NCBI GenBank assembly: GCA_003576755.1
Contig: QEVT01000001.1
Span: forward strand, 641-64,640
Length of the DNA: 64,000 nucleotides
Direction: 5' to 3'
DNA from: a bacterium
Lineage (GTDB): Bacteria > Chloroflexota > Anaerolineae > Epilineales > Epilineaceae
In this document: in pieces, positions 9,570-23,955 of the stretch
Position numbering within the stretch: position 1 is the first letter of the stretch
How the letters are laid out: each line of letters begins with the position of its first letter
The notes under the pieces: generated by a model
Databases searched by the model: none
Told to the model about the DNA's origin: nothing
What the model saw: the letters and a program-made list of their open reading frames with translations, nothing else
Program-made: the position numbers and the translations under genes

Positions 9570-10934
9570 TCAGTCGGGCTCCCCGCCCTCGGCCGCCACA
9601 TGGTGGTAGACCTCGTAGACGCTGGCGTTCTGGAAACGATAGCCCTGCCCGCGCAGGCTCTCGATGTGCTGGAACGACGAGCTCGGCGCATCGACCTCCT
9701 TGCGCAGCCGGCTGATCGTCTTCTGGATCATGGCGTCGGTCACCCCGAGGGTGTCGAGCGCGTACTCCGGCCAGACGGCAGCGGCGATGTCGTCCTTGCT
9801 GACGACCTCGCCCGACTTCGTGAGCAGGAAGCGCAGGAGCGCGAACTCCTTCGGAGGCAGCTCGACGGCCTGGCGCTCGATGCGCACGGCGCCGGTGTCG
9901 GGGTTGAGCTCGATGCGCGGGATCTGGCGGCGTACGTAGTCCGCGAACGCGCTCGAGAAGACGCGCCCGGCGACGAGGTAGCCGCGCCGCTCGAGCACGG
10001 GCCGCGCCTGGTTGAACGCCAGGGCGTCGCGCCCTTCCGGCGCGGCGCCCACCGCCAGCCAGGCCAGCGCGTCGCGCTCGGCCACCGGCAGCTTGTGCCA
10101 CGTGTCCTCGAAGTGCGGCGCGTTGCGGACCGCGAAGGCGCGGCCGGCTTCTTCCACCTGGTCCGCGCTGCCGGTCAGCGGCTCGCGCTGTGCGATCTCG
10201 TGGAAGATGGCGGCGGCGACCTGGAGGTAGAACGGGAACCGCCCGGCGAGGTCGTCGATGGCGGCGCGGACCGGCGTGAAGTCCACACCGGCGATCTCGC
10301 CGGTCCGCGCCAGGAAGGCGTTGACCTCTGCGGCGGTGAACGAGCCGATATAGATGTTGCGGAACATGTTGAAGAACGGTGATCCCGTGCCCCACTCTTC
10401 GCGGAACTCTCCGAGCTCCACTCGGGTGGCGACCACGATCGACAGGTCGTACTCGATGATCAGGCCGCGGTACCACTCCCAGAAGCTCGCCTTGAAGTCC
10501 GCCAGCACCTCGAACTCGTCCATCAGCATCACCAGCCGCAGGCCACGCCCGCCGAGGTCCTCGAGGTAGTCCTCGATGCCGAACTGGTCGACGTCGTCCT
10601 CGATGTCGATCTCGGCCTCGGGGTCCGCGCGTTTGATGGCGCGGGCCACGCGGCGGAAGAAGGCGTCCGGTCCCTCGGCGGCCAATTGGGCGTTGACGAA
10701 GGCGAAGACCAGGCGCGCGTCCTCGGCGGCCGGCAGGTGCCGCGCCCGCACGTCGGGGTGCATGAGCTGGTAGAGCAGGCTGGTGTTGCCGCAGCGGTGC
10801 TCACCGACCAGGGCAACCGGCTGCATGTTGGCGATGGACTCGAACAGCTCGCGCAGGGCGTCTCCCCGGCCGTGGAAGTCCGCGGGATCCTTGATCGGTT
10901 TGCCGAGCACGAACGGGTTGCGGCGAGCGGTCAT
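9570..10934 (-). CDS. P-loop (AAA-type) ATPase fused to a C-terminal OmpR/PhoB-type winged-helix DNA-binding domain
   Basis: N-terminal ATPase with Walker-A-like VALVGEHRCGNTSLLY and Walker B VMLMDEFE. C-terminus has a trans_reg_C-like region (ELPPKEFALLRFLLTKSGEVVSKDDI...RLRKEV...GYRF). GAGGAG RBS 8 nt upstream. Confidence 0.8.
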   Translation of the reverse strand: MTARRNPFVLGKPIKDPADFHGRGDALRELFESIANMQPVALVGEHRCGNTSLLYQLMHPDVRARHLPAAEDARLVFAFVNAQLAAEGPDAFFRRVARAIKRADPEAEIDIEDDVDQFGIEDYLEDLGGRGLRLVMLMDEFEVLADFKASFWEWYRGLIIEYDLSIVVATRVELGEFREEWGTGSPFFNMFRNIYIGSFTAAEVNAFLARTGEIAGVDFTPVRAAIDDLAGRFPFYLQVAAAIFHEIAQREPLTGSADQVEEAGRAFAVRNAPHFEDTWHKLPVAERDALAWLAVGAAPEGRDALAFNQARPVLERRGYLVAGRVFSSAFADYVRRQIPRIELNPDTGAVRIERQAVELPPKEFALLRFLLTKSGEVVSKDDIAAAVWPEYALDTLGVTDAMIQKTISRLRKEVDAPSSSFQHIESLRGQGYRFQNASVYEVYHHVAAEGGEPD

Positions 10935-10962
10935 CCGCCTGGCTCCTCGGGTGGCGTGTGGG

Positions 10963-13900
10963 TCAGCTTGGTGCCTGCATCAGCAGGCGCGAGTACTCGT
11001 CGTTCTGTTCCAGCCAGATGCGCACCAGGTCCATGGCGAACCCGTACTGCCGGCCCGCGCTGTCGCCCCCGCGCTCCAGGATGAAGTCGCGGGCCTTCAG
11101 CCCGGGCATGAGCTCCTGAAGGTCCAGAAGCGTCAGCGTCATGTCGTCCTGCCCCAACGTCTCCGACACGTCCTCGAGGCTGACGAACGGGCGGCCGTCG
11201 TCGGTGATCCGCGCCATCGCCGCCAGCGCGAGCTGCTCGTCGCGCGAGAGCGACATGTACCCGTGGCGGATGATGCCCGTGGTCTCCTGGACCGTGGTCT
11301 GGAGCGCCCGGTCGACGTCGCGCAGCGTGACGAAGTTCTTCTGGTCGCGGCGGGCCAGGTTGACGATCTCATGGCAGATGTACTGGATGAAGTACGGCTG
11401 CCCGGCCGTCACGCGCAGGATCTTCTCCACCGCGAGATCATCGTACCACAGCACGTCCGCCACGGGCTCGCGGATCAGCCGCTCGGCCTCGTCGCGCTCG
11501 AGGAAGCTCACCTTGCGCCGCAGCGCCGTGTTGAACAGGATCGACCGCGGGTCCTTGAGCATCGCGGTCACGGCGTGCGCCCCGGCGAAGATGAACGACA
11601 GCCCGTCCTGATGCTGCATCAGCCCGCGGATGCAGTCGAACACGTAGGCGTTGACGTTCCCCTTGTCGACCGCCTCGATCAGGAGGTCGAACTCGTCGGC
11701 GATCAGCACGGCCCGTCGTCCGAGCTGGATCGCCATGTCGCCGATCGTCTCGCCGAGGATCTGGAACTGTTCGATGGGGCGTTCGGTGTACTCCTCGCGC
11801 TCCGGACGCGGCAAGTCGAACCCTGCCCGGCGCAGCCCGTTCACGGCCTTGCGCGCCATCGCGTACAGGAGGTCGGACGTCGACTCCAGTGCGTACGCGA
11901 TCGACTGCAGGTCGATCAGCACGAACGCGTAGAGCTCCGGGAGGTGGTACTGGAGCTGGTAGAGGACGCTGGTCTTGCCGGTGCGCCGCTCGCCGTACAG
12001 CACGAGCACGTTGTCCTGGTAGGTGCCCGACACGTTCTCCTGGATCCAGTTGAAGACCGACTGGCGGCCGTAGAACATCTGCGGGGTCTTGACCGGCGGG
12101 CCGGCGATGTAGGGGCTCGGGCCGATGTCGCGGTACTCGGCCTGCTCGACGAAGAAGCGCACCTCGCGGTTGAAGACCTTGGACTGGTTCTCCTTCTGCG
12201 GGTCGTCGTAGCGCACCTCCACCGTGACCGGCACCACGCCGGCGCCCTGGCGGCGGACGGTGTACTCGGTCGAGATGCGGTCGCCCTGACCGAGCGGTGG
12301 GAGGTAGTGCGTGGGGGGCGACTCGAGCTGCAGCGCGTCGGGCTCGACGTTGAGGGTCAGGCGCACGTTGGAGGCCAGGCCTTCGCGTCGGTTGAGGAGC
12401 TCGAACACCAGCACCGCGGCGGCGTCGACGTCGCGGATCCTGACGTGCTCGGTGCGGATGTCGAGGTCGAGGTCCGCCCGCCCCTGGAGCTCGCGGATGG
12501 CGTGGTTGATGAGCCCGTTCCAGTGCTCGGCCACCGCGTGGAACACCCGTGTGTGCGGCTCGCCCATCTCGCCGATCAGCGTGCGGAGCGTGTTGAGCCG
12601 GTCGGCGGCCGCCAGAAGCCCCTTCTCCTTGGAGCGCCGGGTGGCGCCGCGGTTGTAGTACTGCACGGCCTGCGAGATCATCCGCAGCTGGCGGAACACC
12701 CGGCGGGCGGCGGGGCGCAGCCACTCCTCGACCTCGTCGACCCATTCCAGCCCCGCCTCGGCGGCTCCGATCCCGCCCAACGTGGTGTACTGCAGGAACT
12801 GCCGGGCCGTGACGAAGGTGCGGTGCAGCTCGACGGCCGGCGGCCACCATTCGATGGTCGTCGTCAGATACACCAGCTCGTCGACGTCGAGCGGCTCGAC
12901 CAGCAGCCGGTGGTAGGCGCGTGCGAGGTTGGCCGGCGCGCGGCCGTCGGCGCGCGCCGCCGCGCCGGCCTGTTCGAGCACGCGCAGCGCGCCCTCGAGG
13001 TCGATCTCGGCCGGCCGGGCGTTCAGTCCCACCACCAGCGGCACCACAGCCGGCTCGCCGATGCCCCCCAGGAGCGCGGCGGCCTCGTGTCGGATGTCGC
13101 GGTTGTCGGACGCCAGCGCGTCGATCAACGTCGGGATGGCGTCCGACGGCGCGATTTCGGCGAGGGCGTTGAGGATCGCCAGCGCCGTGTCGTGATCGGT
13201 CTCGACCGCCCACTGGCGGATCAACGCGTTGGCCGCCGTAGGGTCGTCCATCCCGCCGAGCCGCGCCACGGCGTTGCGTCGCACCATCGGGTCGGCGTCG
13301 CCGCTGGCCTGCTCGAGCAGGGCGCGGACGTCGGGGCCGGTCAGCTCGCCGAGGGCGCCGACGGCGCGCCGCCGCACGGCGACGTCTTGCACGCCGAGCA
13401 TGTCGCGGAACACGGCCAGGAGCGGCGCCATCGGCGGCGACGGCAGCGCCATCACCACCTGGGCGAGCTCCCACCGCAGGTTCGGGTCGGGGCTGTGGTC
13501 GAGGGCATCGAGGAGCGCCGCCGTCGCCGCTCCGCCCAGACGCCGGAGGCTGCGGCGGGTCTCCCATCGCACTTCGAAGCGCGCGTCGGCCAGCGCTCGG
13601 ACGAGGAACGGGGCGGCCTGCTCGCCGGCGTCGTCGAACTCGCCGAGCAGCGCGGCGGCCGTGGTGGCCAGCGGGTAGTCCGGCGTGTCGAGGGCGGCGC
13701 CCAGCGCGGCGATGGCATCCGGTCCGATCGACTTGAGGATCGCGACCACCTGGCGCGCGGTGACCGGGCCGGCCGTGGCATGCAGCGCGATCAGCGCCGT
13801 CACCGACGTCCGGCCGATGCGCGCCAACGCGTCGGCGGCCCCGTCGACCTGTTCGGGCGTGCGGTCACCCTGGGGCGGTGCGCCGCCGAGCACCTCGATC

Positions 13901-15693
13901 AGCATCGGCACGGCCTCGGGCCCGATCAGGGCCAGCGCTTCGGCCGCCTCGTGGCGGACCACGTTCGCGCTGGCGTCGAGGAGCGCCACCAGCGGTGCGA
14001 CCGCCTTGGGCCCCTGCCGCGCCAGCGCGTGCATCGCGGCGCGGCGCACGGCCTCGTTCGGCACGTTGAGCTGCCGCACCAGCGGCTGGAGCGTGCGGTC
14101 GCCGAACGTCGCCAACGCGTCGGCGGCCGCGATGCGCACGCCCTCGTCGGCGTCGCCGAGCGCGGTCAACAGCGACGCGATCGCGCTGGGGTCTCCAAGC
14201 CGGGCCAGGGCCTCGGCGGCGGCGCGCTGGACGGCCGGCTGCGGCTCGGCCAGCGCGGCGAGCACCGGCGCCACGATGCCGGTGCGCTTGACGGTCTCGC
14301 TGCCCAGGAGGCCCGCCAAGGGGATGGCGACCTTTCGATCGGTGTCGCGGTCCTTGCGGCCGAGGTAGTCGAGAAGCGCCAGGAGCGCCTGCTCGCGCAG
14401 ATCGGTCGGCACCGGGCGGACCTCGGCCAGCGCCAGCGTGGCCAGGACAGGGTGCCCGGCGGCGAGCAGCGACGCGATGAGCGCGCGCGGATCGCGGCTC
14501 TGCCCGGCCGAGAACACGATGACCGGGTCCCACCATGGGTCCCCGGCATGGCCGACCAGCGTGGGGATGTCGTCGGACATGGCGCGGGCCGCGAAGAGCA
14601 CCTGCACGGCCGGGTGGACGAAGCGGAACGTGTCGCTCGAGAGCCACTGCAGGAGCCCCGAGGACTGTCGCTCGGGCGGCACCAGGCTGGCCGCGCCGAC
14701 CCGGGTCTTGCCCTCGTGCAGCGCGCGCGCGATCGGCGGCCAGATCGCGTCGGGCTCGCCGTCGAGCTGCCGGACGAAGCCGTCGACGATGTCGTGGGTC
14801 CGGATGGGCTCGGACTGGCGGGCGACGCCGGCCAGGGCCGTGGCGAGCCAGCCCGGGCGCGCCACGAGCGAACGCACCAGCGACGAGCGCTCCATCACCT
14901 GCATGAAGCCGCTGGTGTTGGCGACCTGTCCGTATCCCCAGCGGCCGGCAAGGGTCTCCACCCGGCTGGGGTCGACGCCGGCCACCTCGACGACCACGAA
15001 GTCCGAGAGCCAGACGCGGTCGGCGAAGTCGCGCGTGGCCACCACCACGCGGTTGGCGGGGTAGCGCGCCACCAGGTCGGCGATCCGCTCGGCAGCCGCC
15101 TGCCGCTCCGTCGGCGGGAGCGTGTCGAGGTCGTCGAACAGGAGCACGGTGCGGCCACTGGACAGGTGCGTGTCGAGGAAGGCGCCGGCCCCCTCGAAGC
15201 CGGCGCGGCCGAGGATCGCCTCGGCATAGGCCTCGATGGACTGGTGTGCCGGGATCGCGGTCAACGGGACGTAGACCGGGAGCGGCGGCGGGCCGCCCTC
15301 GGCCAGGAGCACGCGCCGGCCGGCTTCGACGACGGCGCGCGCGGACTGGATCGCGTGCCAGCGCAAGAGCGCGCTCTTGCCGGTGCCAGCCGGGCCGATC
15401 AGGAGGACGTGCGCGTTCTCCGCCAGGGCTTCGGCCAGCGTGAGCGGCCGGACCCCCGTGGCGCCGTCGTCGGCGCCCGGCGCGCTCTCCTCGCTCCAGC
15501 GCTGGAGCTCGATCGGCACGTACGAGTCGTCGAGCCGCAGCTCGCCGAGGGCCGGCAGGTGCATGGCGCCGAGCTGCCGATCGATGGTTTCCAGGTAGTT
15601 GACGTACGCGCTCCAGTGGGTGGCGACCTGCCACCAACGGCTGCCCGGTCGACCGAGCCGCCGCGAGACATTGGATGTGAGCTGCGTGGCCAT
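10963..15693 (-). CDS. STAND NTPase: NACHT-like ATPase + HEAT/PBS-lyase repeats + second C-terminal P-loop ATPase module (1576 aa)
   Basis: N-terminal Walker A VLLIGPAGTGKSALL and Walker B VLLFDDLD. Central repeats (LARLGDPSAIASLLTALGDADEGVRIAAADAL...). Second Walker A VLVLYGERRTGKTSVLYQL with Walker B VLIADEFD. Start trimmed to MATQLTS (ATG 15693, AGGAG RBS). Confidence 0.8.
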   Translation of the reverse strand: MATQLTSNVSRRLGRPGSRWWQVATHWSAYVNYLETIDRQLGAMHLPALGELRLDDSYVPIELQRWSEESAPGADDGATGVRPLTLAEALAENAHVLLIGPAGTGKSALLRWHAIQSARAVVEAGRRVLLAEGGPPPLPVYVPLTAIPAHQSIEAYAEAILGRAGFEGAGAFLDTHLSSGRTVLLFDDLDTLPPTERQAAAERIADLVARYPANRVVVATRDFADRVWLSDFVVVEVAGVDPSRVETLAGRWGYGQVANTSGFMQVMERSSLVRSLVARPGWLATALAGVARQSEPIRTHDIVDGFVRQLDGEPDAIWPPIARALHEGKTRVGAASLVPPERQSSGLLQWLSSDTFRFVHPAVQVLFAARAMSDDIPTLVGHAGDPWWDPVIVFSAGQSRDPRALIASLLAAGHPVLATLALAEVRPVPTDLREQALLALLDYLGRKDRDTDRKVAIPLAGLLGSETVKRTGIVAPVLAALAEPQPAVQRAAAEALARLGDPSAIASLLTALGDADEGVRIAAADALATFGDRTLQPLVRQLNVPNEAVRRAAMHALARQGPKAVAPLVALLDASANVVRHEAAEALALIGPEAVPMLIEVLGGAPPQGDRTPEQVDGAADALARIGRTSVTALIALHATAGPVTARQVVAILKSIGPDAIAALGAALDTPDYPLATTAAALLGEFDDAGEQAAPFLVRALADARFEVRWETRRSLRRLGGAATAALLDALDHSPDPNLRWELAQVVMALPSPPMAPLLAVFRDMLGVQDVAVRRRAVGALGELTGPDVRALLEQASGDADPMVRRNAVARLGGMDDPTAANALIRQWAVETDHDTALAILNALAEIAPSDAIPTLIDALASDNRDIRHEAAALLGGIGEPAVVPLVVGLNARPAEIDLEGALRVLEQAGAAARADGRAPANLARAYHRLLVEPLDVDELVYLTTTIEWWPPAVELHRTFVTARQFLQYTTLGGIGAAEAGLEWVDEVEEWLRPAARRVFRQLRMISQAVQYYNRGATRRSKEKGLLAAADRLNTLRTLIGEMGEPHTRVFHAVAEHWNGLINHAIRELQGRADLDLDIRTEHVRIRDVDAAAVLVFELLNRREGLASNVRLTLNVEPDALQLESPPTHYLPPLGQGDRISTEYTVRRQGAGVVPVTVEVRYDDPQKENQSKVFNREVRFFVEQAEYRDIGPSPYIAGPPVKTPQMFYGRQSVFNWIQENVSGTYQDNVLVLYGERRTGKTSVLYQLQYHLPELYAFVLIDLQSIAYALESTSDLLYAMARKAVNGLRRAGFDLPRPEREEYTERPIEQFQILGETIGDMAIQLGRRAVLIADEFDLLIEAVDKGNVNAYVFDCIRGLMQHQDGLSFIFAGAHAVTAMLKDPRSILFNTALRRKVSFLERDEAERLIREPVADVLWYDDLAVEKILRVTAGQPYFIQYICHEIVNLARRDQKNFVTLRDVDRALQTTVQETTGIIRHGYMSLSRDEQLALAAMARITDDGRPFVSLEDVSETLGQDDMTLTLLDLQELMPGLKARDFILERGGDSAGRQYGFAMDLVRIWLEQNDEYSRLLMQAPS

Positions 15694-15971
15694 CGGCGTT
15701 GCTCCTGTGCCAGCCGGCCCGCGGGATTGCCGCCGGGCAGGGTGTCCGCGTGGTCCCAAACAAAACAAACCTGACAAGACGGACATTCGGGCACCCCGCT
15801 TCAGGCGGGCTTGCACGATCGTGGGATGTAATATAACCTAGCCGAGTGCCGGAAGCAATCGCCGTTCGGCACGCCGGCACGCTCTCTGTAGTCAGCGTTC
15901 TGTCAGGGATTGGTAAGGCGGCGGTCAGGGGGCAGTCAAGCGTTGCGCTGGCGCGCGATGCTACCATAGCT

Positions 15972-16218: not shown

Positions 16219-16231
16219 GAGGTGCCGCCCC

Positions 16232-17209
16232 GTGAAAGTTCTTGTCGCAACCAAGGATCTGGCCGTATTTGACGCGCTTCAGGGGCTGACGGGCCTCGAG
16301 TACTCCGAGGCCTTGTTCACCGGCCAGATCTACGAGAGCCTGCCAGGCGCGCGGTTGGTGATCGTCGACTTCGACGATCTCGTCGAGCATCCGTACAGCG
16401 TCAACATGCTGCGCGGCATCCTGTCGGACAGCGACGTGCCGTTCGTGTCGAGCGAGGAGTTTCTCGCCGAGCCCGAGGCGTGGCTCAACGAGGCTCGCCG
16501 GCTGGGCGGCGACACCACGGAGCTGCCGACCAAGCGGACCGTCGCGTTCGTGTCGTACTCGGGCGGCGTGGGCAAGACGGTGCTCGCGATGGACACCGCG
16601 GTGCACTTTGCCCGGCGCGCCAAGCTGCCGGTGGCGCTTCTGGAGTTCACATACGGCGAGTCTGCCGTCGGCGCGCTGGTCGGAGCACAGATCCCGGCCC
16701 TCTTCGAGCTCGCCACCCAGCCCGACGTCGATCCCGTCGTCTGGAACGGTGTCACGCTGGTGCCGATGGACTACGACAACAGCCGAGACCTTTCGATTCA
16801 GCTCCTCGGCAAGTACCTCAAGGACGTCATGCGCGAGCACGTGCTCACCGTCATCGACGCCCACTGGCCGCATGCCTTGATCGGCGCGGTGCGCGACGAG
16901 ATCGACCGATGGTACGTCGTGGCCACGCCGCGGCCGGACGCGGTCGAGAACGCCGAGAAGCTCGCCGCCGAGCTGGGGCCCAAGGCCGCCATCGTGCTCA
17001 ACCAGAAGGGCGGCATGGTGGACTCGCTGGCGCTGTCGGGGGTCGAGCGGGCGGTCGAGCTGCCTACCGTGCGCGAGGCCGACCGCTGGAACGGCGAGCT
17101 CGGCAAGCGCATCTTGCTGCACACCTACGGCCAGGGCACGTGGGGCCAATACGAGCCGAAGAAGATGTTCGCCGACCTTCGCAAGCGGTTCTCGCGGTCC
17201 AAGGACTGA
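16232..17209 (+). CDS. tadZ: Flp pilus assembly ATPase-like protein TadZ/CpaE (receiver-like N-terminus + ParA/MinD-like domain)
   Basis: VAFVSYSGGVGKTVLAMDTA deviant Walker A. GTG start follows the AAGAGGAAGAGG RBS. First gene of the tad operon. Confidence 0.75.
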   Translation: MKVLVATKDLAVFDALQGLTGLEYSEALFTGQIYESLPGARLVIVDFDDLVEHPYSVNMLRGILSDSDVPFVSSEEFLAEPEAWLNEARRLGGDTTELPTKRTVAFVSYSGGVGKTVLAMDTAVHFARRAKLPVALLEFTYGESAVGALVGAQIPALFELATQPDVDPVVWNGVTLVPMDYDNSRDLSIQLLGKYLKDVMREHVLTVIDAHWPHALIGAVRDEIDRWYVVATPRPDAVENAEKLAAELGPKAAIVLNQKGGMVDSLALSGVERAVELPTVREADRWNGELGKRILLHTYGQGTWGQYEPKKMFADLRKRFSRSKD

Positions 17210-17275
17210 GCCTCTCCGGCTCGCCCCTTCCTGCGTGAAGCGCTCGTCTAATCATACATGTGACTGGGAGAGGAC

Positions 17276-18124
17276 ATGAATCCACGATCGCTCGTCCTGT
17301 TGCTGGCCGTGCTCTTGTTCGGGGTCGGCGTGATCTCGCTGATCTCCGGCTTGTTCGCCGAGGCCCCGCCGAGCCGCACCCTGGTGCCGGCCGTGGCCGC
17401 GATGCAAGTCAAGCCCTATACCGTGATCACGCAGGATATGGTGCGGGCCGGCAATCCCGTCCCGGCCGACGAGTTCGTGGAGAAGGGCATGTACCCGTTC
17501 GACAGCGTGGTCGGCCTGATGTCGACGGACCAGCTGCTGCCGGGCGCGACGCTGACCGGCGTCAACGCCAAGCCGGTCGAGGAGGTTCGCTTCGTCGAGG
17601 ACCTCGGCCTGGAAGTGATCTCGTTCACCACCGGCGTCGACCGGGCGGTGGGCGGCCAGCTCAGGCCCGGCCACATCGTCAACCTCTACGGCTTCGGCCG
17701 CGACCGCGAGACCAACGAGCCGTTCACCAGGATCATCGAGCCGCGGCTGTGGGTCGTCAAGGTGGCCGCCGGCAGCTCGGCGATCTCGAACGCGACGCCG
17801 CGTCCGGACCCCGAGACCGGTGAGTACCAGGTCGAGGGCGGCGATCGCGAGGGCCAGGCCACGCTCATCACGGTGGCGGTCCAGCCTCAGCAAGCCTACA
17901 ACATCGTCAACACGCTCGGCGCCGACGGCCTGCAGGCTTGGGTGACGCTGGCCGCCAACCAGACCGCCGACGCGGCGCTGGCCACCCCGGTGGCCACCGC
18001 GGCGCCGCCGCCGACGGCCGGCCTCTCGGCGGAGCTCTCGCTCACCGCGACCGCCTTGTGGAACCTGGTCAACGCCACGCGCCCGGCCAGCGCACCGCGG
18101 ACCGGCTACGGGGGCGTGCGATGA
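17276..18124 (+). CDS. cpaB: Flp pilus assembly protein CpaB/RcpC (SAF domain)
   Basis: N-terminal TM helix followed by a SAF-like domain. Position between tadZ and tadA. Confidence 0.7.
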   Translation: MNPRSLVLLLAVLLFGVGVISLISGLFAEAPPSRTLVPAVAAMQVKPYTVITQDMVRAGNPVPADEFVEKGMYPFDSVVGLMSTDQLLPGATLTGVNAKPVEEVRFVEDLGLEVISFTTGVDRAVGGQLRPGHIVNLYGFGRDRETNEPFTRIIEPRLWVVKVAAGSSAISNATPRPDPETGEYQVEGGDREGQATLITVAVQPQQAYNIVNTLGADGLQAWVTLAANQTADAALATPVATAAPPPTAGLSAELSLTATALWNLVNATRPASAPRTGYGGVR

Positions 18125-19329
18125 GCGCTGTCGCCCGGTACGACTACAACGAGCTCGTCAGACGGGTGCAGGACTACTGCGTCCAGCGCGAGATCCCGGT
18201 TCCGCGCTGGCGGCGCAACGTCAACCAGGAAGAGGAGCTGGCGTTTCACGCCAACGTCCTGCGGGCCATGAAGGACCTCGGCTTCCAGATCGCCGAGGAG
18301 GATCGCCAGGCCGTGGCGCGCGAGGTGGCCAACCGTATCACGGGCCTAGGCGTGCTGCAGCCCTATCTCGAGCAAGAGGGCATCGAGGAGATCATCGTCC
18401 GCAAGGGGTTCGTCCAGGTCGAGCGAAACGGCCAGATCCACGACGTGGGCGACCTGGCGCCGGACGTCTACTTCTACCGCCTGACGCGGCGCATCGCCGA
18501 CCTCGAAGGCAAGGAGATCGGCGCCGAGGACCCGCAGATCAAGCTCGGTCTCCCGGACGGAAGCCGCTTCACGGCGGCCATCCCGCCGCTGTCGCGCGAG
18601 GGCACGGCGATCAACATCCGCCGCTTCAGCCGCAAGAAGCTGACGTTCGAGGATCTCATCTCGTACGGTGCGATCGACGAAGAGGCGGCCGAGTTTCTCA
18701 AGGACGTGTCGCGGGCGATGGCCAAGAGCGTGATCTTCAGCGGCCGCCCGGGTGCCGGCAAGACCACGATCCTCAACGCATTCACGCAGTACCTGCCGCC
18801 GCACTGCCAGCTTTCGCTGGTCGAGACGTTCCAGGAGGTGCAGCCGCAGCTCGGGCACTACAACCACCTGGTGGTGGACGAGGGCCTGGGCGAGGTCGGC
18901 CGCGTCGTCAACGTGGTGTTCCTCCGGATGCGCCCGGACGTCATGATCATCGGCGAGACGGTGTCGGAAGAGGCGATCGAGTTCATCATGGGCCTCAACC
19001 TCGGCATCACCGCGTTCACGACCACCCACGCGCACTCGGCGCGCCTCGCGATGACGCGCATCGAGACGCTGTCCCGCGGGTCCGGAATCCCGCTGGACGA
19101 GCGCCGCGAGATCATCGGCTCGGGATTGGGGCTGGCGGTGCACATCCACAAGGGCTACGACCCCGACTCCCAGACGTATCGCCGCTACATGCGCGAGATG
19201 ATCGCGGTGCACGGGGTCAAGCGCTCGGCGGAGGGTGGCGTGGAGTATGACTACGAGGTGATCAAGGAGTTCGACCCGCGCCGCAAGACATGGACGCCGC
19301 TGCGCGAACCGAAGAACTGGTTGGACTGA
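18121..19329 (+). CDS. tadA: Type II/IV secretion system ATPase TadA/CpaF
   Basis: Walker A FSGRPGAGKTT plus the secretion-ATPase His/Asp boxes. Its ATG overlaps the cpaB stop (ATGA). Confidence 0.9.
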   Translation: MSAVARYDYNELVRRVQDYCVQREIPVPRWRRNVNQEEELAFHANVLRAMKDLGFQIAEEDRQAVAREVANRITGLGVLQPYLEQEGIEEIIVRKGFVQVERNGQIHDVGDLAPDVYFYRLTRRIADLEGKEIGAEDPQIKLGLPDGSRFTAAIPPLSREGTAINIRRFSRKKLTFEDLISYGAIDEEAAEFLKDVSRAMAKSVIFSGRPGAGKTTILNAFTQYLPPHCQLSLVETFQEVQPQLGHYNHLVVDEGLGEVGRVVNVVFLRMRPDVMIIGETVSEEAIEFIMGLNLGITAFTTTHAHSARLAMTRIETLSRGSGIPLDERREIIGSGLGLAVHIHKGYDPDSQTYRRYMREMIAVHGVKRSAEGGVEYDYEVIKEFDPRRKTWTPLREPKNWLD

Positions 19330-19363
19330 TGAGCCCGCGCATTCCGAAAGTCGAGGTGGCGGT

Positions 19364-20251
19364 GTGAGCGGTGGCATGATGATCCTGATCGGCGGCGGAG
19401 GGCTGCTGGCCTACTTGATCTATGACTGGCTGCAGTACCGCATGCGGTCACGTTTGCGCCGTGAGTCCAAGGAAAAGGGCGTGGCCAAGCGGGTGAGCTA
19501 CGACTGGCGGGTCTACTTCATGGTCGGGTTCACCGTGCTGCTCACCTATCTCTTCGCCAGGCCGATCGAACGCGAGATCCCGGTGGCGCGCGGCCTTCCG
19601 CCGGACATCATCATCGGGCGCTGCCTGTTGGTGGCAGGCTACATCCTGCTGATCGGCCTGATCTGGGCCTACCGCCAAGCCGGCAAGGAGGCGGTGTCCG
19701 AGCGCCGCCTGATCAACGAGCAGGTGGCCGAGCTCGTGGCCGCGTTCCGCAGCGTGTTCCGGATTCGCCCGACGGTGTTCAGCGCCCTCGAGGAGTCCAA
19801 CAAGAAGATCGACCCTCCCACCGGCACCGCGGTGGCGCACGCCGTGACCACGTTCTACGTGACGGCGCTGCCCCGCCGGGCGCTCGAGGAGCTGCAGGCG
19901 CGCATCCAGAACGCGTACATGGACCAGTTCATCTACATCCTGGAGCGCGGCGAGGACGCCAAGCACGAGGACATCATGACGGCGCTCGACGGCTTGCTGA
20001 TCCGTCTCCGGCGCGCCCGTGAGCTGCGCGACCAGTCCGAGGTCAACATGACGGTCGTGTCGGGGCAGACGCGGGTCATCCAGGGCATCGCCATCACGAT
20101 GGTGCTGGTGGTCGGCATCTTCGAACGCCTGCGGGTGGCCTACGAGTCGGTGCCGGGCCAGCTCGTCTTCGTGTTCTTCGCGACCATCGGCGTCGTCACG
20201 AGCTGGTACATCGACAGCCAGGCCCAGAAGCTCAAAGAGAAGGTTCTCTGA
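19364..20251 (+). CDS. tadB: Flp pilus assembly membrane protein TadB (T2SS F-like)
   Basis: Polytopic membrane protein immediately after tadA. GAGGTG RBS 6 nt before the GTG start. Confidence 0.75.
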   Translation: MSGGMMILIGGGGLLAYLIYDWLQYRMRSRLRRESKEKGVAKRVSYDWRVYFMVGFTVLLTYLFARPIEREIPVARGLPPDIIIGRCLLVAGYILLIGLIWAYRQAGKEAVSERRLINEQVAELVAAFRSVFRIRPTVFSALEESNKKIDPPTGTAVAHAVTTFYVTALPRRALEELQARIQNAYMDQFIYILERGEDAKHEDIMTALDGLLIRLRRARELRDQSEVNMTVVSGQTRVIQGIAITMVLVVGIFERLRVAYESVPGQLVFVFFATIGVVTSWYIDSQAQKLKEKVL

Positions 20252-20252
20252 C

Positions 20253-20900
20253 ATGCTGCAACAGCTGCTGCTCCTGCTGGCCTTGATGGGAGGGTTCCTC
20301 CTCCTCTTGATCCTCTTCGGGGGCGAGATCTGGACCCGGGTGTGGCGCTTTCAGCGCAAGCGCCGCATGGCGCGGCTCGAGCGCTACCGCCCGCGCAACA
20401 TGTGGCGCCGGTTGCGCAAGAAACCGGTGTACGAGGTCGACCTGACGACCATCCGCGACTTCGTGCTGACGCTGCAGCTCTCGCTTTCGCTGGCCGAGAC
20501 ACTGGCCGGCGCGCTCGTGCAGGCCTCGCGGCAGTTCGGCGAGCGCGGCACCTTCGGCGAGCGCCTGACGGTGCGCGTCCGCAGCCAGTTGCAGGTCGAG
20601 CCCGAAGCCGTCATCCGTGCCCTGGCCGAGGACTTCAGCTCGCCGCACATGCACGAGCTGGCGGATCGCCTGGACCTGGCGCACGAGGGCGGCCTGTCGT
20701 ACAGCGAGGCGGTCAACACCACCCTCGACGACATCGAGGAGGAGATCCGCATCGGGGTCGAGAAGGAGATCGAGCGGGCACCGGTCATGTTGACCATCCC
20801 GATGATCATGGGCGTGTTCTTCGCGGCGCTGGCGCTCCTGGGCTACCCCCTGATCATCCTGATGTTCGACGCCGCGGGCGCCGCTCAAGGCGGGCGCTGA
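20253..20900 (+). CDS. tadC: Flp pilus assembly membrane protein TadC
   Basis: Second T2SS-F-like membrane protein; starts 1 nt after the tadB stop. Confidence 0.75.
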   Translation: MLQQLLLLLALMGGFLLLLILFGGEIWTRVWRFQRKRRMARLERYRPRNMWRRLRKKPVYEVDLTTIRDFVLTLQLSLSLAETLAGALVQASRQFGERGTFGERLTVRVRSQLQVEPEAVIRALAEDFSSPHMHELADRLDLAHEGGLSYSEAVNTTLDDIEEEIRIGVEKEIERAPVMLTIPMIMGVFFAALALLGYPLIILMFDAAGAAQGGR

Positions 20901-21185
20901 GCCCGAGCGGCTCGAGCGCCGGCGCGGACGGCGGACGCCGGGGCGTGGACGATCGGCCGAGCGGCGCGAGTCAACCGAAACCCACCGGAAGGAACCCGGC
21001 CGGGCCAGCGCCCGGCCGGGTTTTCTGTTGCCGAGGCCGGCTCGGTCGTGCGCCAAGGGCAGGGGATCTCACAGGTCTGCCGGCGGTCACCGTGATCCGT
21101 GGCGTGTCGCGTCCGGCGACCGGCCGCGCTAGCTGACGTCTTGCTGACAATTGCCCGCGACAAGCCTGACAACGGCGCCTGGCAC

Positions 21186-21214
21186 TTGCCAAGCTTGCCG
21201 CTTCGTGATAGAAT
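21186..21214 (+). promoter_or_regulatory. Sigma-70-like promoter upstream of flp1 (TTGCCA - 17 nt - TAGAAT)
   Basis: Hexamers and spacer read directly. The element ends 43 nt before the flp1 ATG at 21258. Confidence 0.45.
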
Positions 21215-21257
21215 GGTGGCTAGTTCATCCGTTTTCACTCGAGGAGGTACCTTCCCA

Positions 21258-21518
21258 ATGGTTAATTCCCTGAAGCGCTTCTGGAACGACGAGAGCGGTC
21301 CGGAGCTGGTGGAGTGGGCGGTCGTGACCATCATCCTGTTGGTGGCGGCGATCGTGCTCTACATCGCGGTGGGCAAGCTTCTCGGCAACGTGATCTGCGG
21401 CATTCAGTGCTGGCTGAGCAAGGCCGCGTCGTCCGAGGGCCACAAGGCCGCTGCCGGCACGGGCATGGGCACGTGCGACAAGGCCGAGCGCAACGACGAC
21501 GGCAGCTGCAACTTCTAG
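21258..21518 (+). CDS. flp: Flp-family prepilin (Flp1) with a C-terminal Cys-containing extension
   Basis: GAGGAGG RBS. The Flp-type motif G-PELVEWAVVTIILLV (G/xxxxEY-like cleavage region) is followed by a hydrophobic segment. Confidence 0.7.
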   Translation: MVNSLKRFWNDESGPELVEWAVVTIILLVAAIVLYIAVGKLLGNVICGIQCWLSKAASSEGHKAAAGTGMGTCDKAERNDDGSCNF

Positions 21519-21606
21519 TCTGAATGCGGCGCTTCACGGCGCCGGACAACGCGCCCACGGCGGGTTTCGCTCGCGAGACCGCCAGGCGTCGACACACAGC
21601 AGCAAA

Positions 21607-21638
21607 CCGGGCAGGGCTGGCATCACGGCCCTGCCCGG
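21607..21638 (+). terminator. Hairpin (11-bp stem ccgggcagggc / gccctgcccgg, 10-nt loop) followed by tctgtatct
   Basis: Perfect inverted repeat 89 nt after the flp1 stop. Typical position for a pilin-gene attenuator/terminator. Confidence 0.5.
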
Positions 21639-21830
21639 TCTGTATCTGGCGGACGGAGCACCCTCCGCGGGTCGCTTGAGCCTGCCGGCTGCGGGGACAC
21701 CGGTCTGCGGCGAGAGGCGGCGCTTCGGCGGTCCGGAGCGGCCCGCGACCACCGTGGCATCATTCTTGCTATATCGATCTTGCGGGTGCCGGCGCCGGCC
21801 GGCGCACCACCGATGGGAGGTGACCTAATC

Positions 21831-22061
21831 ATGCGTGCATCATTCGCTTTCAGGCGGTTCTGGGACGACGACCGCGGCGCCGAGATGGTCGAGTGGGCGC
21901 TGGTGACGCTCATCCTGCTCATCGCCACGTCCAGCGTGATCATCGGGCTGCGCGAGATGATCGTCGACGCGCTCAAGTCGATCTTCGCCGCCCTGCAGGA
22001 GGACCCGGCGGACGCGTGGACGACTGGCTCGGTGGCGCCGCCGCCGACCCCGAACCCGTGA
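21831..22061 (+). CDS. flp: Flp-family prepilin (Flp2)
   Basis: GGGAGG RBS. MRASFAFRRFWDDDRGAEMVEWALVTLILLIA is paralogous to Flp1. Confidence 0.65.
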   Translation: MRASFAFRRFWDDDRGAEMVEWALVTLILLIATSSVIIGLREMIVDALKSIFAALQEDPADAWTTGSVAPPPTPNP

Positions 22062-22101
22062 CCCTGGCCGCCCTTCGTCACGGCCACGACAGGCGCGCCC
22101 C

Positions 22102-22626
22102 ATGCCGCAATGGCTGAATCCCGAGGCCACCCTGTGGATCGTCAAGATCGTCATCACGCTGTGGATGGTCGCGGTGTCCGTGCTGGACCATCGCGACGGA
22201 CGCATCCCCAACCGCCTGACGGGGCCGGTCTTTCTGGGTGTGGGGGCGTATCGGATCCTCTGGGAGGGGTTGTGGCAGGGCGAACATGTCCGCCTGTGGT
22301 TGCTGGCGGCATGGGCCGTCGTCTACGGGCTGTGGATGCTGCACTTCATCGGGGGCGGCGACGGCAAGTTCCTGATGGCGCAGCTCGCGCTGTTCCCGAG
22401 CATGGAGTACGTGGCGGTGTTGGCCCTGGTCCTGCTGGTGCTGACGGTGCCGTTGCTGGTGTGGACGATGCGGGGCCGCTCGCCGGGCGCTTTGCTGCGC
22501 GGGGTTTGGGCCCGGCTGCAAACCGGCGAGGTGCTGCCGACGGAAGAAGAGCTCCAAACGCACGGCAAGCGCTACGCGTGGACCTATGCCGTGCCGGGGA
22601 TCGTGTACACGTGGGTGTACTGGTGA
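22102..22626 (+). CDS. tadV: Prepilin peptidase TadV/CpaA (A24 family)
   Basis: Catalytic-Asp-containing segments (DHRDGRIPN, GGGDGKF) and a multi-TM protein. Confidence 0.75.
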   Translation: MPQWLNPEATLWIVKIVITLWMVAVSVLDHRDGRIPNRLTGPVFLGVGAYRILWEGLWQGEHVRLWLLAAWAVVYGLWMLHFIGGGDGKFLMAQLALFPSMEYVAVLALVLLVLTVPLLVWTMRGRSPGALLRGVWARLQTGEVLPTEEELQTHGKRYAWTYAVPGIVYTWVYW

Positions 22627-22686
22627 CGGACCGTGGGCGGGGTCGTGTCCGCATCGGTGTCCGTTGAGCGAACAGGTGGTGTGGAG

Positions 22687-23223
22687 ATGAGGCATCCGAT
22701 GACACGGTTTTCAAGATACCGTGACGGGGTTCGGGCGGTGTGCCGCCGAGCCTGGGGGTCGGCCGCGCGATTCGGCGGCGATCGCCAGGGTGGCACCGCC
22801 GTGCAGGCGATCATGTTCCTGCCGGTCATCGCGGTGGCCATGTTCGGCCTGATCCGCGTGTGGCAGGTGATCCAGGTCCGCGACTCGCTGCACACCGGCA
22901 CGTACCTCGCCACGCGCTACATGTCGCTGTACACGCCGGAGACGTCGGATCCGGTGTTCTGGGAGGACATCGCTTACAAGTTCATCCTCGCCGAGCTCGA
23001 GGCCAACCCGTGGGTGGACAAGATGCGCCTCATCCCGGGCAGCCCGACGATCGGGGTGACGGTCGTGCTGACCGACGGCGGCTACGAGTGCACCAACGAC
23101 TTTACGGTCGAAGCCAAGTACACGATGAACGTCATGGGCGGCGATCCCGGCCAGAACGGCCTGCCCGGGCTGTCCGACATCACGCTCGTCGACCTTCGGA
23201 AGGGTGAGGTCCTGTGCAAATGA
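22687..23223 (+). CDS. tadE: TadE/TadG-like pseudopilin 1
   Basis: TadE-like N-terminus (GGTAVQAIMFLPVIAVAMFGLI). Start trimmed to MRHPMTRF. Confidence 0.6.
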   Translation: MRHPMTRFSRYRDGVRAVCRRAWGSAARFGGDRQGGTAVQAIMFLPVIAVAMFGLIRVWQVIQVRDSLHTGTYLATRYMSLYTPETSDPVFWEDIAYKFILAELEANPWVDKMRLIPGSPTIGVTVVLTDGGYECTNDFTVEAKYTMNVMGGDPGQNGLPGLSDITLVDLRKGEVLCK

Positions 23224-23942: not shown

Positions 23943-23955
23943 CGGCGAAGGAGGC

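What the first reader, a model, noticed from the sequence alone, without database searches (positions are those of the whole stretch)
9570..15693. Two-gene STAND module: NACHT-HEAT-ATPase giant plus an ATPase-OmpR-wHTH regulator sharing a paralogous ATPase domain
A 1576-aa STAND protein is followed 28 nt downstream, on the same strand and with its own GAGGAG RBS, by a 454-aa protein. The larger protein has a NACHT-type Walker A/B, then HEAT repeats, then a second complete P-loop ATPase module. In the smaller protein the N-terminal ATPase is recognisably homologous to the STAND's C-terminal ATPase module. Compare FYGRQSVF...VLVLYGERRTGKTSVLYQL / VLIADEFDLL / AGQPYFIQYICHEI with FHGRGDAL...VALVGEHRCGNTSLLYQL / LVMLMDEFEVL / AGRFPFYLQVAAAIFHEI. 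The smaller protein ends in an OmpR/PhoB-type winged helix. Bacterial STANDs of this kind include antiviral Avs systems and signal-transduction ATPases. Here the shared module suggests hetero-oligomerisation coupling STAND activation to a transcriptional output. I do not know of a described system with this exact pairing.
Basis: partly seen in the sequence, partly recalled or inferred. Interest (0 to 1): 0.75.

Follow-up and report, generated by a model that had tools for sequence, protein, structure and literature searches.

The report
Split STAND switch beside Tad pilus genes
A giant sensor ATPase and a small DNA-binding partner with a related but crippled ATPase form a conserved gene pair in filamentous Chloroflexota, sit next to the Tad pilus genes, and most likely control their transcription rather than defend against viruses.

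Summary
On the minus strand, a 1576-aa NACHT–HEAT–second-ATPase protein (10963-15693) is followed after 28 nt by a 454-aa ATPase–OmpR-wHTH protein (9570-10934). The giant's C-terminal ATPase and the small protein's ATPase are paralogous (BLASTP 2e-12; hhalign 1.4e-24 over 317 columns).

New findings:
- The pair is co-inherited in every orthologous locus recovered from Anaerolineae, Caldilineae and Ardenticatenales MAGs. The genes usually overlap by 4 or 8 nt.
- The pair always lies divergent from a Tad pilus locus, not in a defence island.
- The small protein's Walker A is invariantly GEHRCGNTS, with Asn in place of the lysine.
- Five direct CTGAC-type repeats at exact 11-bp phase lie between tadZ and the giant. 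They are conserved in all orthologous loci. A related site lies upstream of the flp1 pilin gene.
- Relatives carry the same pairing logic with a Ser/Thr kinase output.

Kaur et al. (eLife 2021) predicted nSTAND2 two-gene systems in which the partner with eroded NTP-binding motifs carries the effector and the two form a hetero-multimer. This locus is a non-immune, transcription-output variant of that design. It resembles a split AfsR or MalT. Hetero-oligomerisation and DNA binding remain inferred.

The parts
10963..15693 (-). Giant STAND protein, 1576 aa (coordinates include the stop codon)
   Evidence: ORF and translation; GC3 0.94; called as a 1576-aa gene in public assemblies; orthologues align from residue 1.
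14938..15438 (-). N-terminal NACHT/nSTAND1 NTPase domain (aa 86-252), Walker A GPAGTGKS, Walker B VLLFDDLD
   Evidence: Pfam NACHT 29.3 bits (cut-off 26.7) and nSTAND1 34.8 bits (cut-off 27.1); motifs read from the translation. This is the least conserved part across orthologues (47-62%; 90% in the closest relative L007).
12994..14406 (-). HEAT-repeat region (about aa 430-900), the presumed sensor
   Evidence: Pfam HEAT_2 161.7 bits in six stretches; PDB sequence hits to alphaRep/HEAT proteins; 50-59% identity across orthologues.
12124..12903 (-). MID region (aa 931-1190): helical bundle plus beta-sandwich, no family assignment
   Evidence: AlphaFold model: helices at model residues 7-140 and strands at 145-252, pLDDT about 88. 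65-80% identical across orthologues. Co-occurs with the C-module in about 1085-aa Chloroflexota proteins.
10966..12123 (-). C-terminal ATPase_2/nSTAND2-like NTPase module with helical and winged-helix domains (aa 1191-1576). Canonical Walker A GERRTGKTS, Walker B LIADEFD
10943..10948 (-). GAGGAG ribosome-binding site of the small gene
   Evidence: Sequence. The same GGAGGAG/GAGGAG is conserved inside the giant's 3' end in orthologues where the two genes overlap.
9570..10934 (-). Small protein, 454 aa: nSTAND2-type NTPase module with Walker A GEHRCGNTS (Lys to Asn), helical and winged-helix domains, then OmpR/PhoB wHTH
9624..9914 (-). OmpR/PhoB-type winged-helix DNA-binding domain (about aa 341-437)
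15886..15940 (-). Candidate operator: five direct repeats at exact 11-bp phase (CTTGACTGCCC CCTGACCGCCG CCTTACCAATC CCTGACAGAAC GCTGACTACAG) between tadZ and the giant
   Evidence: It is the only phased array of three or more units in the 64-kb window; 0 of 200 shuffles gave even three units. The core is conserved with variable spacers in all orthologous loci. No such site is found in 266 kb of other loci apart from the homologous position in L033.
15830..15858 (-). Putative activator-dependent promoter of the giant-small operon: TTGCTT, 17-nt spacer, TATATT
   Evidence: Read from the sequence. A TTGC...TATAnT pair recurs 12-27 nt after the array in most orthologues; it was not evident in L011/L012. 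It fails the strict sigma-70 scan because the -35 is weak. Inference only.
21132..21170 (+). Second candidate operator upstream of the flp1 pilin gene: GCTGACGTCTT GCTGACAATTG CCCGCGACAAG CCTGAC, followed by a TAGAAT -10 at 21209-21214
   Evidence: YTGAC-N6-YTGAC occurs four times in the window against 0.30 expected. An equivalent site lies in the tadC-flp1 intergenic region of L053, L007, L016, L017 and L021. Coordinates.
16232..24795 (+). Divergent Tad (Flp) pilus locus. tadZ/cpaE-like 16232-17209; cpaB 17276-18124; tadA/cpaF about 18121-19329; tadB-like 19364-20251; tadC-like 20253-20900; flp1 21258-21518; flp2 about 21831-22061; prepilin peptidase 22102-22626; TadE-like 23214-23942
   Evidence: Pfam T2SSE, RcpC, T2SSF, Peptidase_A24 and TadE. 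NCBIfam CpaB and TadA family, below equivalog cut-offs. Flp G/xxxxEW motifs. Syntenic in all orthologous loci with enough upstream DNA.

Best explanation
This is a vertically inherited signal-transduction STAND module of filamentous Chloroflexota, not an immune system.

The giant protein is the sensor and engine. It has a NACHT NTPase, a HEAT-repeat sensor, a MID domain, and a second, catalytically intact ATPase_2/nSTAND2-like NTPase module. It has no effector domain.

The small protein is the output. It carries a paralogous NTPase module whose Walker A lysine is replaced by Asn, so it is probably hydrolysis-deficient. That module is fused to an OmpR/PhoB winged helix.

Proposed mechanism:
1. 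The two proteins are co-translated.
2. On a signal, their paralogous NTPase modules co-assemble. This step is inferred, following the published prediction for nSTAND2 two-gene systems.
3. The assembly brings several wHTH domains into register.
4. These domains bind head-to-tail on helically phased CTGAC repeats, five units upstream of the module's own promoter in the region shared with tadZ.
5. A shorter array upstream of the flp1 pilin gene is bound in the same way.
6. The result is autoregulation plus control of Tad pilus expression.

Shown here: domain content, paralogy, co-inheritance, gene overlap, Tad synteny, and the conserved phased repeats with their restricted distribution.

Inferred: hetero-oligomerisation, DNA binding by this wHTH, the sign of regulation, and the nature of the signal.
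For: - Co-inheritance: in all 12 species-level genome loci of the orthologous clade that have upstream DNA, plus one metagenome locus, the giant sits directly upstream of the small gene.
- Coupling: the stop and start codons overlap by 4 or 8 nt in 11 of 13 loci.
- Block conservation: the flank beyond the small gene is not conserved, while the tad-giant-small block persists.
- Distant variant: L033 (giant module 39% identical) keeps tad, a split NACHT gene, a HEAT-ATPase gene and an nSTAND2-Trans_reg_C gene, with a phased GCTGAC array in the same intergenic position.
- Second pair: most relatives carry a further pair of the same design downstream, an ATPase-TPR-TM protein followed by an ATPase-Trans_reg_C protein.
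- Kinase output: other relatives pair the large module with an nSTAND2-Ser/Thr kinase.
- Degenerate P-loop: the Lys-to-Asn Walker A is invariant, with Walker B DE retained.
- No own effector: the giant has no effector domain.
- Operator: the array is unique in the window. The repeat cores are conserved while the spacers vary.
- Motif distribution: motif pairs occur only at the tadZ-giant, tadC-flp1 and small-gene3 intergenic regions of orthologous loci. Only one occurs in 266 kb of control loci, at the homologous site of L033.
- Precedent: nSTAND2 two-gene hetero-multimer prediction (PMC8195603). AfsR has an OmpR-type DNA-binding domain on 11-bp phased direct repeats, gated by a NOD and TPRs (PMC10936776).
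Against: - No experiment or multimer model was available to test contact between the two NTPase modules.
- A second paralogue clade of the small protein has the same GEHRCGNTS motif but no conserved partner gene. The degenerate module can therefore exist without an adjacent giant.
- The Walker A change is a single residue and Walker B is intact, so loss of nucleotide binding is not proven.
- Most relatives also encode a second NOD-Trans_reg_C protein that could be the one binding the repeats. Against this, the window, L007 and L012 lack that gene yet keep the array.
- Promoters were not confirmed by the strict scan, so the sign and direction of regulation are open.
- All relatives belong to one part of one phylum, so synteny partly reflects common descent.
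- All genomes are MAGs.
- The flp1-proximal site is degenerate in L037 and L038.
Confidence: 0.5

Rival explanations
1. The two proteins are co-transcribed but work independently. The small protein acts as a self-sufficient homo-oligomeric transcription factor, and the giant NACHT-HEAT protein does something else, for example scaffolding or regulating the pilus machinery directly. No mixed NTPase assembly forms.
For: Orphan paralogues of the small protein with the same P-loop exist in the same genomes without any conserved neighbour. NOD + Trans_reg_C proteins of about 440 aa are common, and most have a canonical Walker A. AfsR and MalT work as single-protein STAND regulators.
Against: Adjacency is strict and start/stop overlap is frequent. 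The giant's most conserved part is exactly the module paralogous to the partner. The same large-module plus small-module pairing recurs with different outputs, wHTH or kinase. The small protein has no sensor repeats and the giant has no output domain.
Confidence: 0.25
2. It is an antiviral or counter-invader STAND system, of the Avs type or the nSTAND2 two-gene conflict type. Its wHTH output switches on a defence or dormancy programme after sensing a phage protein through the HEAT repeats.
Against: The PADLOC hit covers only HEAT repeats and no defence NTPase model matches. There is no toxic effector domain. The neighbours are housekeeping and pilus genes, with no mobile elements. The locus sits at the same place next to tad across orders, with 74-87% identity in the C-module, which indicates vertical inheritance under purifying selection. 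The HEAT region is moderately conserved, not hypervariable.
Confidence: 0.07
3. The phased CTGAC arrays are bound by a different OmpR-family protein, and the small protein regulates unrelated genes elsewhere. Candidates are the fourth-gene NOD-Trans_reg_C protein of relatives or a response regulator. The link to Tad would then be positional only.
For: Eleven-bp phased direct repeats are generic for the OmpR/PhoB family (established knowledge). Another Trans_reg_C domain lies in the window at 57395-57670. Unrelated metagenome contigs also carry CTGAC-phased arrays.
Against: The array is present in lineages that lack the fourth gene: the window, L007 and L012. The wHTH recognition-helix segment DAMIQKTISRLRKE is invariant across the orthologous clade, in parallel with the invariant repeat core. 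The motif is absent from all 13 orphan-paralogue locus records, which represent 11 distinct places since L004/L019 and L006/L025 are duplicates. It is present at the homologous site of the distant L033 system, whose small protein has a similar helix.
Confidence: 0.13

Closest known systems
nSTAND2 two-gene operon of Kaur, Iyer, Burroughs & Aravind (eLife 2021, PMC8195603, Fig. 6C), predicted computationally
   Same: Two adjacent same-strand genes each encode a STAND NTPase module followed by a wHTH. The upstream protein has the form 'unknown region + STAND + wHTH'. The downstream protein matches Pfam nSTAND2, has a degraded NTP-binding motif, and carries the output domain. A hetero-multimer was predicted.
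   Different: The output here is an OmpR-type DNA-binding domain (or a Ser/Thr kinase in relatives), not HEPN or GT4. Only the Walker A Lys is lost, to an invariant Asn, and Walker B is intact. The active partner is fused to a whole extra NACHT-HEAT unit. The locus is not mobile and is fixed beside Tad pilus genes in one Chloroflexota lineage. The published examples read here are from Proteobacteria (including Deltaproteobacteria) plus one Calditrichaeota entry, and were interpreted as counter-invader systems.
AfsR / large SARP regulators of Streptomyces (PMC10936776)
   Same: A STAND NOD and a repeat sensor control an OmpR-type DNA-binding domain that binds direct repeats phased at 11 bp next to a weak -35 promoter. 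Nucleotide binding gates activation.
   Different: AfsR is one polypeptide with an N-terminal DNA-binding domain, BTAD, NB-ARC-type NOD and TPRs. Here the DNA-binding domain is C-terminal, there is no BTAD, and the NOD is of the ATPase_2/nSTAND2 type. Sensor and DNA-binding domain sit on two proteins with paralogous NODs.
MalT / LAL-family STAND transcription activators
   Different: MalT has a LuxR-type HTH, is a single protein and has a canonical P-loop. There is no paralogous pseudo-ATPase partner.
Archaeal Walker-type ATPases PABY2304 (2qen) and SSO1545 (2fna), Pfam ATPase_2
   Different: They are stand-alone proteins of unknown function. They lack sensor repeats, an OmpR domain and a partner gene.
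Avs / bacterial NLR-like antiviral STANDs
   Same: A NACHT-type NTPase followed by helical repeats in a protein of more than 1500 aa.
   Different: No nuclease, protease, SIR2 or TIR effector; no PADLOC match to a defence NTPase; housekeeping context; vertical inheritance.

Membership tests
STAND NTPase, NACHT clade (giant, N-terminal module) | Walker A GxxxxGK[ST] and Walker B hhhhD[DE] | tested here: met
   GPAGTGKS and VLLFDDLD are read in the translation.
STAND NTPase, NACHT clade (giant, N-terminal module) | Score above the curated Pfam threshold for NACHT or a sister STAND model | tested here: met
   NACHT 29.3 bits (cut-off 26.7) and nSTAND1 34.8 bits (cut-off 27.1), both on aa 86-252. 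The margins are small.
STAND NTPase, NACHT clade (giant, N-terminal module) | NTPase followed by a helical/winged-helix arm and a C-terminal repeat sensor | tested here: inconclusive
   HEAT repeats follow. The arm region, about aa 253-430, was neither modelled nor assigned.
nSTAND2 two-gene system (PMC8195603) | Two adjacent co-directional genes, each with a STAND NTPase module plus wHTH | tested here: met
   Winged-helix elements follow both NTPase modules in the models. The pair is conserved.
nSTAND2 two-gene system (PMC8195603) | Match to the nSTAND2 model (PF20702) | tested here: met
   The small protein scores 56.5 bits against a cut-off of 24. The giant's C-module itself is not reported for PF20702, but its 30-34%-identical homologues are annotated with it and it aligns to the small-protein family at hhalign E 1.4e-24.
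nSTAND2 two-gene system (PMC8195603) | One partner has eroded NTP-binding motifs and carries the effector | tested here: inconclusive
   The output-bearing partner has an invariant GEHRCGNTS, with the Lys lost. The rest of the P-loop and Walker B DE are intact. More distant wHTH or kinase partners keep GK[ST].
nSTAND2 two-gene system (PMC8195603) | Effector is a conflict-type domain (HEPN, GT4) and the operon is mobile | tested here: not met
   The output domain is Trans_reg_C. The locus is syntenic next to tad across orders.
nSTAND2 two-gene system (PMC8195603) | Conserved arginine finger in both partners and a toroidal hetero-multimer | not testable with these tools
   No multimer prediction or coordinate access was available. 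Conserved Arg residues exist, but their role was not established.
OmpR/PhoB winged-helix DNA-binding domain | Trans_reg_C sequence and fold | tested here: met
OmpR/PhoB response regulator | N-terminal receiver domain with a phospho-acceptor Asp | tested here: not met
   There is no Response_reg hit. The N-terminus is an NTPase module. NCBIfam response-regulator models match only the C-terminal roughly 100 aa, far below their cut-offs.
OmpR/PhoB winged-helix DNA-binding domain | Binds direct repeats phased by one helical turn | not testable with these tools
   Candidate sites with exact 11-bp phase were found and are conserved. Binding itself needs an experiment.
SARP / AfsR | N-terminal OmpR-type DNA-binding domain plus BTAD, NB-ARC NOD and TPR | tested here: not met
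   The DNA-binding domain is C-terminal, and there are no BTAD, NB-ARC or TPR hits.
Avs / antiviral STAND | Effector domain, match to a defence-system model, defence-island context | tested here: not met
   PADLOC gives only a HEAT-repeat hit and weak P-loop hits. NCBIfam EruA scores 18.7 bits against a cut-off of 1000. Neighbours are tad genes, a P-type ATPase, a sigma factor and a tRNA synthetase.
Tad (Flp) pilus locus (neighbour) | TadA/CpaF ATPase, TadB/C platform proteins, CpaB, TadZ, prepilin peptidase, Flp pilins | tested here: met
   T2SSE 1.8e-19, Peptidase_A24 2.4e-9, and weaker RcpC, T2SSF and TadE hits. NCBIfam TadA family 1.5e-39 and CpaB 1.4e-8, below equivalog cut-offs. Two ORFs carry the Flp G/xxxxEW motif. 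Several individual hits are sub-threshold, so the call rests on the ensemble.

The most novel reading that the evidence does not exclude
This is a heteromeric STAND transcription switch. The giant's active nSTAND2-like module templates a mixed oligomer with an Asn-P-loop pseudo-ATPase partner. About five OmpR winged helices then line up on five helically phased CTGAC repeats. This makes it the first identified regulator of Tad pili in Chloroflexota. It also shows that the nSTAND2 two-gene architecture, so far predicted only as an immune device, is a general split sensor/output signalling design. Its outputs are interchangeable: DNA-binding domain, Ser/Thr kinase, HEPN or GT4.
Probability: 0.35. 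Interest if true: 0.75.

Novelty: new variant of a known kind. Interest (0 to 1): 0.6.

Why it matters
STAND/NLR-type proteins are mostly studied as single-chain immune receptors or single-chain activators such as MalT and AfsR. This locus offers a naturally split version. Sensing and ATP turnover sit on one chain. DNA binding sits on a paralogous, probably inactive chain. A concrete operator of five 11-bp units provides a simple readout for testing.

The locus would allow a direct test of the predicted hetero-multimer logic of nSTAND2 pairs, and of what a Lys-to-Asn P-loop does in such an assembly.

It also gives the first candidate transcriptional control system for Tad pili in filamentous Anaerolineae and Caldilineae. 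These organisms matter for floc and granule structure in wastewater treatment, and no Tad regulator is mentioned in the one Chloroflexota Tad-pilus paper I searched for such terms (paper list).

Tried and rejected
- PADLOC and NCBIfam defence models gave no meaningful match. The defence reading was rejected.
- The PDB sequence search returned only HEAT/alphaRep proteins and OmpR DNA-binding domains. It found no solved relative of either NTPase module by sequence.
- Rfam found nothing in the whole window, so the long tadZ-giant intergenic region holds no known riboswitch or sRNA.
- The strict sigma-70 and terminator scan of 15600-16300 found nothing. The promoter calls are therefore my reading only.
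- A metagenome scan with the four-unit array pattern gave 68 hits, of which only 6 are orthologous loci. Most of the rest are unrelated contigs, many of them pure 11-mer tandem repeats. The pattern alone is not diagnostic. Specificity comes from core-only conservation and position.
- A search for a conserved partner next to the orphan paralogue clade found none.
- The 129-aa ORF at 15846-16235 (+), which overlaps the operator region, was dismissed. It did not pass the GC3 >= 0.85 / GC2 < 0.62 filter, has no Pfam hit and is not called in public assemblies.
- I could not work out a convincing tadZ-directed promoter in the shared intergenic region.
- A literature search for STAND plus OmpR pairings returned nothing relevant.
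- I could not identify an arginine finger from alignments alone.

Full report
**1. The observation**

The window is 72% GC. It comes from a Chloroflexota MAG, and identical loci occur in GCA_021463285.1 and GCA_026645665.1. Both genes lie on the minus strand. The giant runs 10963-15693 (1576 aa) and the small gene 9570-10934 (454 aa). They are separated by 28 nt, with GAGGAG 8 nt before the ATG. Both have GC3 of 0.94, typical of real genes here.

Pfam gives the following for the giant:
- NACHT/nSTAND1 at aa 86-252.
- Six HEAT_2 stretches, placed with the other HEAT/Arm hits at about aa 430-900.
- AAA_22/ATPase_2 at aa 1207-1437.

For the small protein it gives nSTAND2 at aa 42-249 and Trans_reg_C at aa 355-434.

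The giant's C-terminal module aligns to the small protein at E=2e-12. Its N-terminal NACHT does not. A profile-profile comparison of the two ortholog families gives E=1.4e-24 over 317 columns. That span includes the helical and winged-helix domains after the nucleotide-binding domain.

**2.

*(a) A degenerate P-loop.* The small protein's P-loop is GEHRCGNTS, with the Walker A lysine replaced by Asn. All nine residues are invariant in 28 family members spanning 45-80% identity. Walker B (DEF) is also invariant. Among the 150 best cluster representatives of the wider NOD family, 117 keep GK[ST], 9 have GN[ST], 8 have GR[ST] and 1 has GH. Loss of the lysine is therefore derived and recurrent.

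*(b) No effector on the giant.* About 85 residues precede the NACHT P-loop and look like ordinary NACHT lead-in. The region between the HEAT repeats and the second ATPase is a helical bundle plus a beta-sandwich of unknown function.

**3. Co-inheritance**

A scan of one genome per species found 24 loci in Anaerolineae, Caldilineae and Ardenticatenales MAGs. The genomes represented by two loci each carry two paralogues of the small gene: one orthologous to the window's copy (59-93% identity) and one more distant (46-56%).

Every orthologous locus that has upstream DNA carries the giant directly upstream of the small gene. That is 12 genome loci plus one metagenome locus. None of the distant paralogues has a giant, and they have no conserved neighbour at all.

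In 11 of 13 orthologous loci the giant's stop codon overlaps the small gene's start by 4 or 8 nt. A conserved GGAGGAG lies inside the giant's 3' end. The 28-nt gap is peculiar to the window and its closest relative.

Conservation along the giant is uneven:

| Region | Identity across orthologues, excluding the closest relative L007 |
|---|---|
| C-module | 74-87% |
| MID | 65-80% |
| HEAT | 50-59% |
| NACHT | 47-62% |

The part paralogous to the partner is therefore the most constrained.

**4. The pairing is a recurring design**

Most orthologous loci carry a second pair immediately downstream:
- A roughly 650-aa protein with an ATPase like the giant's C-module (about 31% identity), TPRs and two C-terminal transmembrane helices.
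- A roughly 430-450-aa protein with a NOD, Trans_reg_C and a canonical GKT.

The window, L007 and L012 lack this second pair.

More distant relatives of the giant's MID + C unit sit next to nSTAND2 partners with other outputs:
- An nSTAND2-Ser/Thr kinase fusion (L031).
- Separate nSTAND2 and kinase genes (L032).
- In L033, beside a tad locus: a separate NACHT gene, a HEAT-ATPase gene, an nSTAND2-Trans_reg_C gene, and then another NACHT-HEAT-ATPase giant.

**5. Context**

On one side lie a convergent P-type ATPase, an ECF-type sigma factor, a cNMP-binding protein and a class-I tRNA synthetase. On the other side lies a divergent Tad pilus locus:
- tadZ-like gene
- cpaB
- tadA/cpaF
- tadB-like and tadC-like genes
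- two Flp pilins with the G/xxxxEW motif
- prepilin peptidase
- TadE-like gene

The tad genes are syntenic in all nine genome loci with enough upstream DNA, and in further metagenome loci. The P-type ATPase side is shared only with the closest relative.

No mobile-element or defence gene appeared in the annotated neighbourhood, roughly 10 kb on each side. PADLOC gives only a HEAT-repeat hit.

**6. A candidate operator**

The 538-nt tadZ-giant intergenic region holds five direct repeats at exact 11-bp phase on the giant's strand (window 15940-15886): CTTGACTGCCC CCTGACCGCCG CCTTACCAATC CCTGACAGAAC GCTGACTACAG.

Evidence that the array is real and specific:
- It is the only phased array of three or more units in the 64-kb window. 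None of 200 shuffles gave even three units.
- The same array is present in every orthologous locus. The TGAC/TTAC cores are conserved and the spacers are free to vary.
- In most loci it is followed after 12-27 nt by a TTGC...TATAnT pair that faces the giant (not evident in L011/L012). This is a weak -35 with a good -10, and it fails the strict scan.

The two-unit motif YTGAC-N6-YTGAC occurs four times in the window against 0.30 expected:
- Two occurrences lie in the array.
- One lies about 110 nt upstream of flp1 (21132-21170). Cores sit at offsets 0, 11 and 33, ahead of a TAGAAT -10.
- One lies between the sigma factor gene and the P-type ATPase gene.

In orthologous loci the motif is found at only three places: the tadZ-giant array, the tadC-flp1 intergenic region (L007, L016, L017, L021, L053), and the intergenic region between the small gene and gene 3 (L009, L010, L018).

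In 266 kb of control loci (orphan paralogues and kinase-type relatives) it occurs once. That site is at the homologous tad-STAND intergenic position of L033.

Eleven-bp phased direct repeats are the classic binding mode of OmpR/PhoB-type domains and of SARPs (PMC10936776). The segment DAMIQKTISRLRKE corresponds to the OmpR-family recognition helix by my comparison with PhoB from memory. It is invariant across the orthologous clade.

**7. Interpretation**

The best reading is a split STAND transcription switch tied to Tad pili. The giant senses a signal and turns over ATP. The small protein supplies a paralogous, probably non-hydrolysing NOD plus the DNA-binding domain. Co-assembly would array several winged helices on the phased repeats, giving autoregulation and control of the pilin and tad promoters.

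The hetero-multimer step is inferred. It follows Kaur et al. 2021 (PMC8195603, section on GT4 and Fig. 6C). [quoted passage not shown] In these, the partner with eroded motifs carries the effector, and a toroidal hetero-multimer was predicted.

The present locus fits that template in gene order, module type and location of the degenerate P-loop. It differs in four ways:
- The output is a DNA-binding domain.
- The motif erosion is mild.
- The active partner is fused to an extra NACHT-HEAT unit.
- The biology is vertical inheritance beside pilus genes rather than a mobile conflict system.

Functionally, the nearest characterised analogues are AfsR and MalT, but each of those is a single chain.

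**8. Caveats**

- There is no direct evidence for protein-protein contact, DNA binding, the sign of regulation or the signal.
- Orphan paralogues show that the Asn-P-loop module can exist without an adjacent partner.
- Relatives with a fourth gene have a second candidate DNA-binder.
- Several tad assignments rest on sub-threshold hits taken together.
- All relatives are MAGs from one part of one phylum.

**9. Verdict**

The finding is real and the paralogy is real. The pair is a conserved functional unit. I rate it a new variant of a known kind, interest 0.6.

Noticed in passing
window 21258-21518 (+) and about 21831-22061 (+): Two small ORFs between tadC and the prepilin peptidase carry the Flp-pilin motif (SGPELVEWAVV and RGAEMVEWALV) followed by a hydrophobic helix. 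They are likely the major and minor Flp pilins. My GC3 filter did not call them because they are short.
   Followed up: partly
window 6481-6496 (-): A fourth CTGAC-N6-CTGAC pair lies in the intergenic region between the ECF-type sigma factor gene and the P-type ATPase gene, downstream of a TTGACA box. It is conserved in L007, which is only a close relative. It may be a further regulon member or a chance match.
   Followed up: partly
L009 11504-13444 and 13481-14770; L016 11367-13397 and 13407-14762: Most orthologous loci carry a second pair downstream that the window lacks. The first protein is an ATPase-wH-TPR protein with two C-terminal transmembrane helices. The second is a NOD-Trans_reg_C protein with a canonical GKT. 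In L009, L010 and L018 a CTGAC pair lies in the intergenic region before the third gene, on the opposite strand.
   Followed up: partly
L031 4007-9258; L032 4084-9273: Relatives of the giant's MID + C unit (about 1085-1090 aa) are paired with an nSTAND2-Ser/Thr kinase fusion or with separate nSTAND2 and kinase genes. This is the same two-NOD logic with a phosphorylation output.
   Followed up: partly
L033 4628-15340: In a distant lineage the NACHT module is a separate 494-aa gene ahead of a HEAT-ATPase gene. A second full NACHT-HEAT-ATPase giant follows the nSTAND2-Trans_reg_C gene. The whole set lies beside tad genes, with a strong TTGACA-N17-TATAAT promoter after the phased GCTGAC repeats.
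   Followed up: partly
Family-wide (proteins P0218-P0361): In the wider NOD family the Walker A lysine has been replaced repeatedly: Asn in 9, Arg in 8 and His in 1 of the 150 best cluster representatives. This suggests recurrent evolution of non-hydrolysing partners.
   Followed up: partly
Orphan paralogue loci L019, L020, L022-L030, L006: The genomes with two loci recovered also carry a second, orphan paralogue of the small protein with the same GEHRCGNTS P-loop. Some copies lack the wHTH (about 340 aa), and there is no conserved neighbour and no CTGAC array. Its role and partner are unknown.
   Followed up: partly
window 57395-57670 (+): Another OmpR-type winged-helix coding segment, 30% identical to the small protein's DNA-binding domain. 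It is presumably an ordinary response regulator.
   Followed up: no
window 15941-15975 (-), just tadZ-side of the array: A conserved box, ATTATCAG(C/G)TATGGTAGCAT, lies immediately next to the first repeat in several lineages (GATACTACTGTCGGG in the Ardenticatenales-type loci). It could be the tadZ-directed -10 region or another binding site. I could not assign it.
   Followed up: no
L062, L093, L047, L035/L071 (metagenome contigs): Unrelated contigs carry five- or six-unit CTGAC arrays at 11-bp phase with variable spacers, which look like operators rather than tandem duplications. They have no homologue of this system on the contig and may be operators of other OmpR-family regulators.
   Followed up: no
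L009 14855-19612 (-): A 1585-aa Peptidase_C25 (gingipain-like) protein converges on the four-gene STAND operon in the Caldilineae MAG.
   Followed up: no
window 47183-51049 (-): A 1288-aa ORF with coding-type GC3. It was not examined.
   Followed up: no
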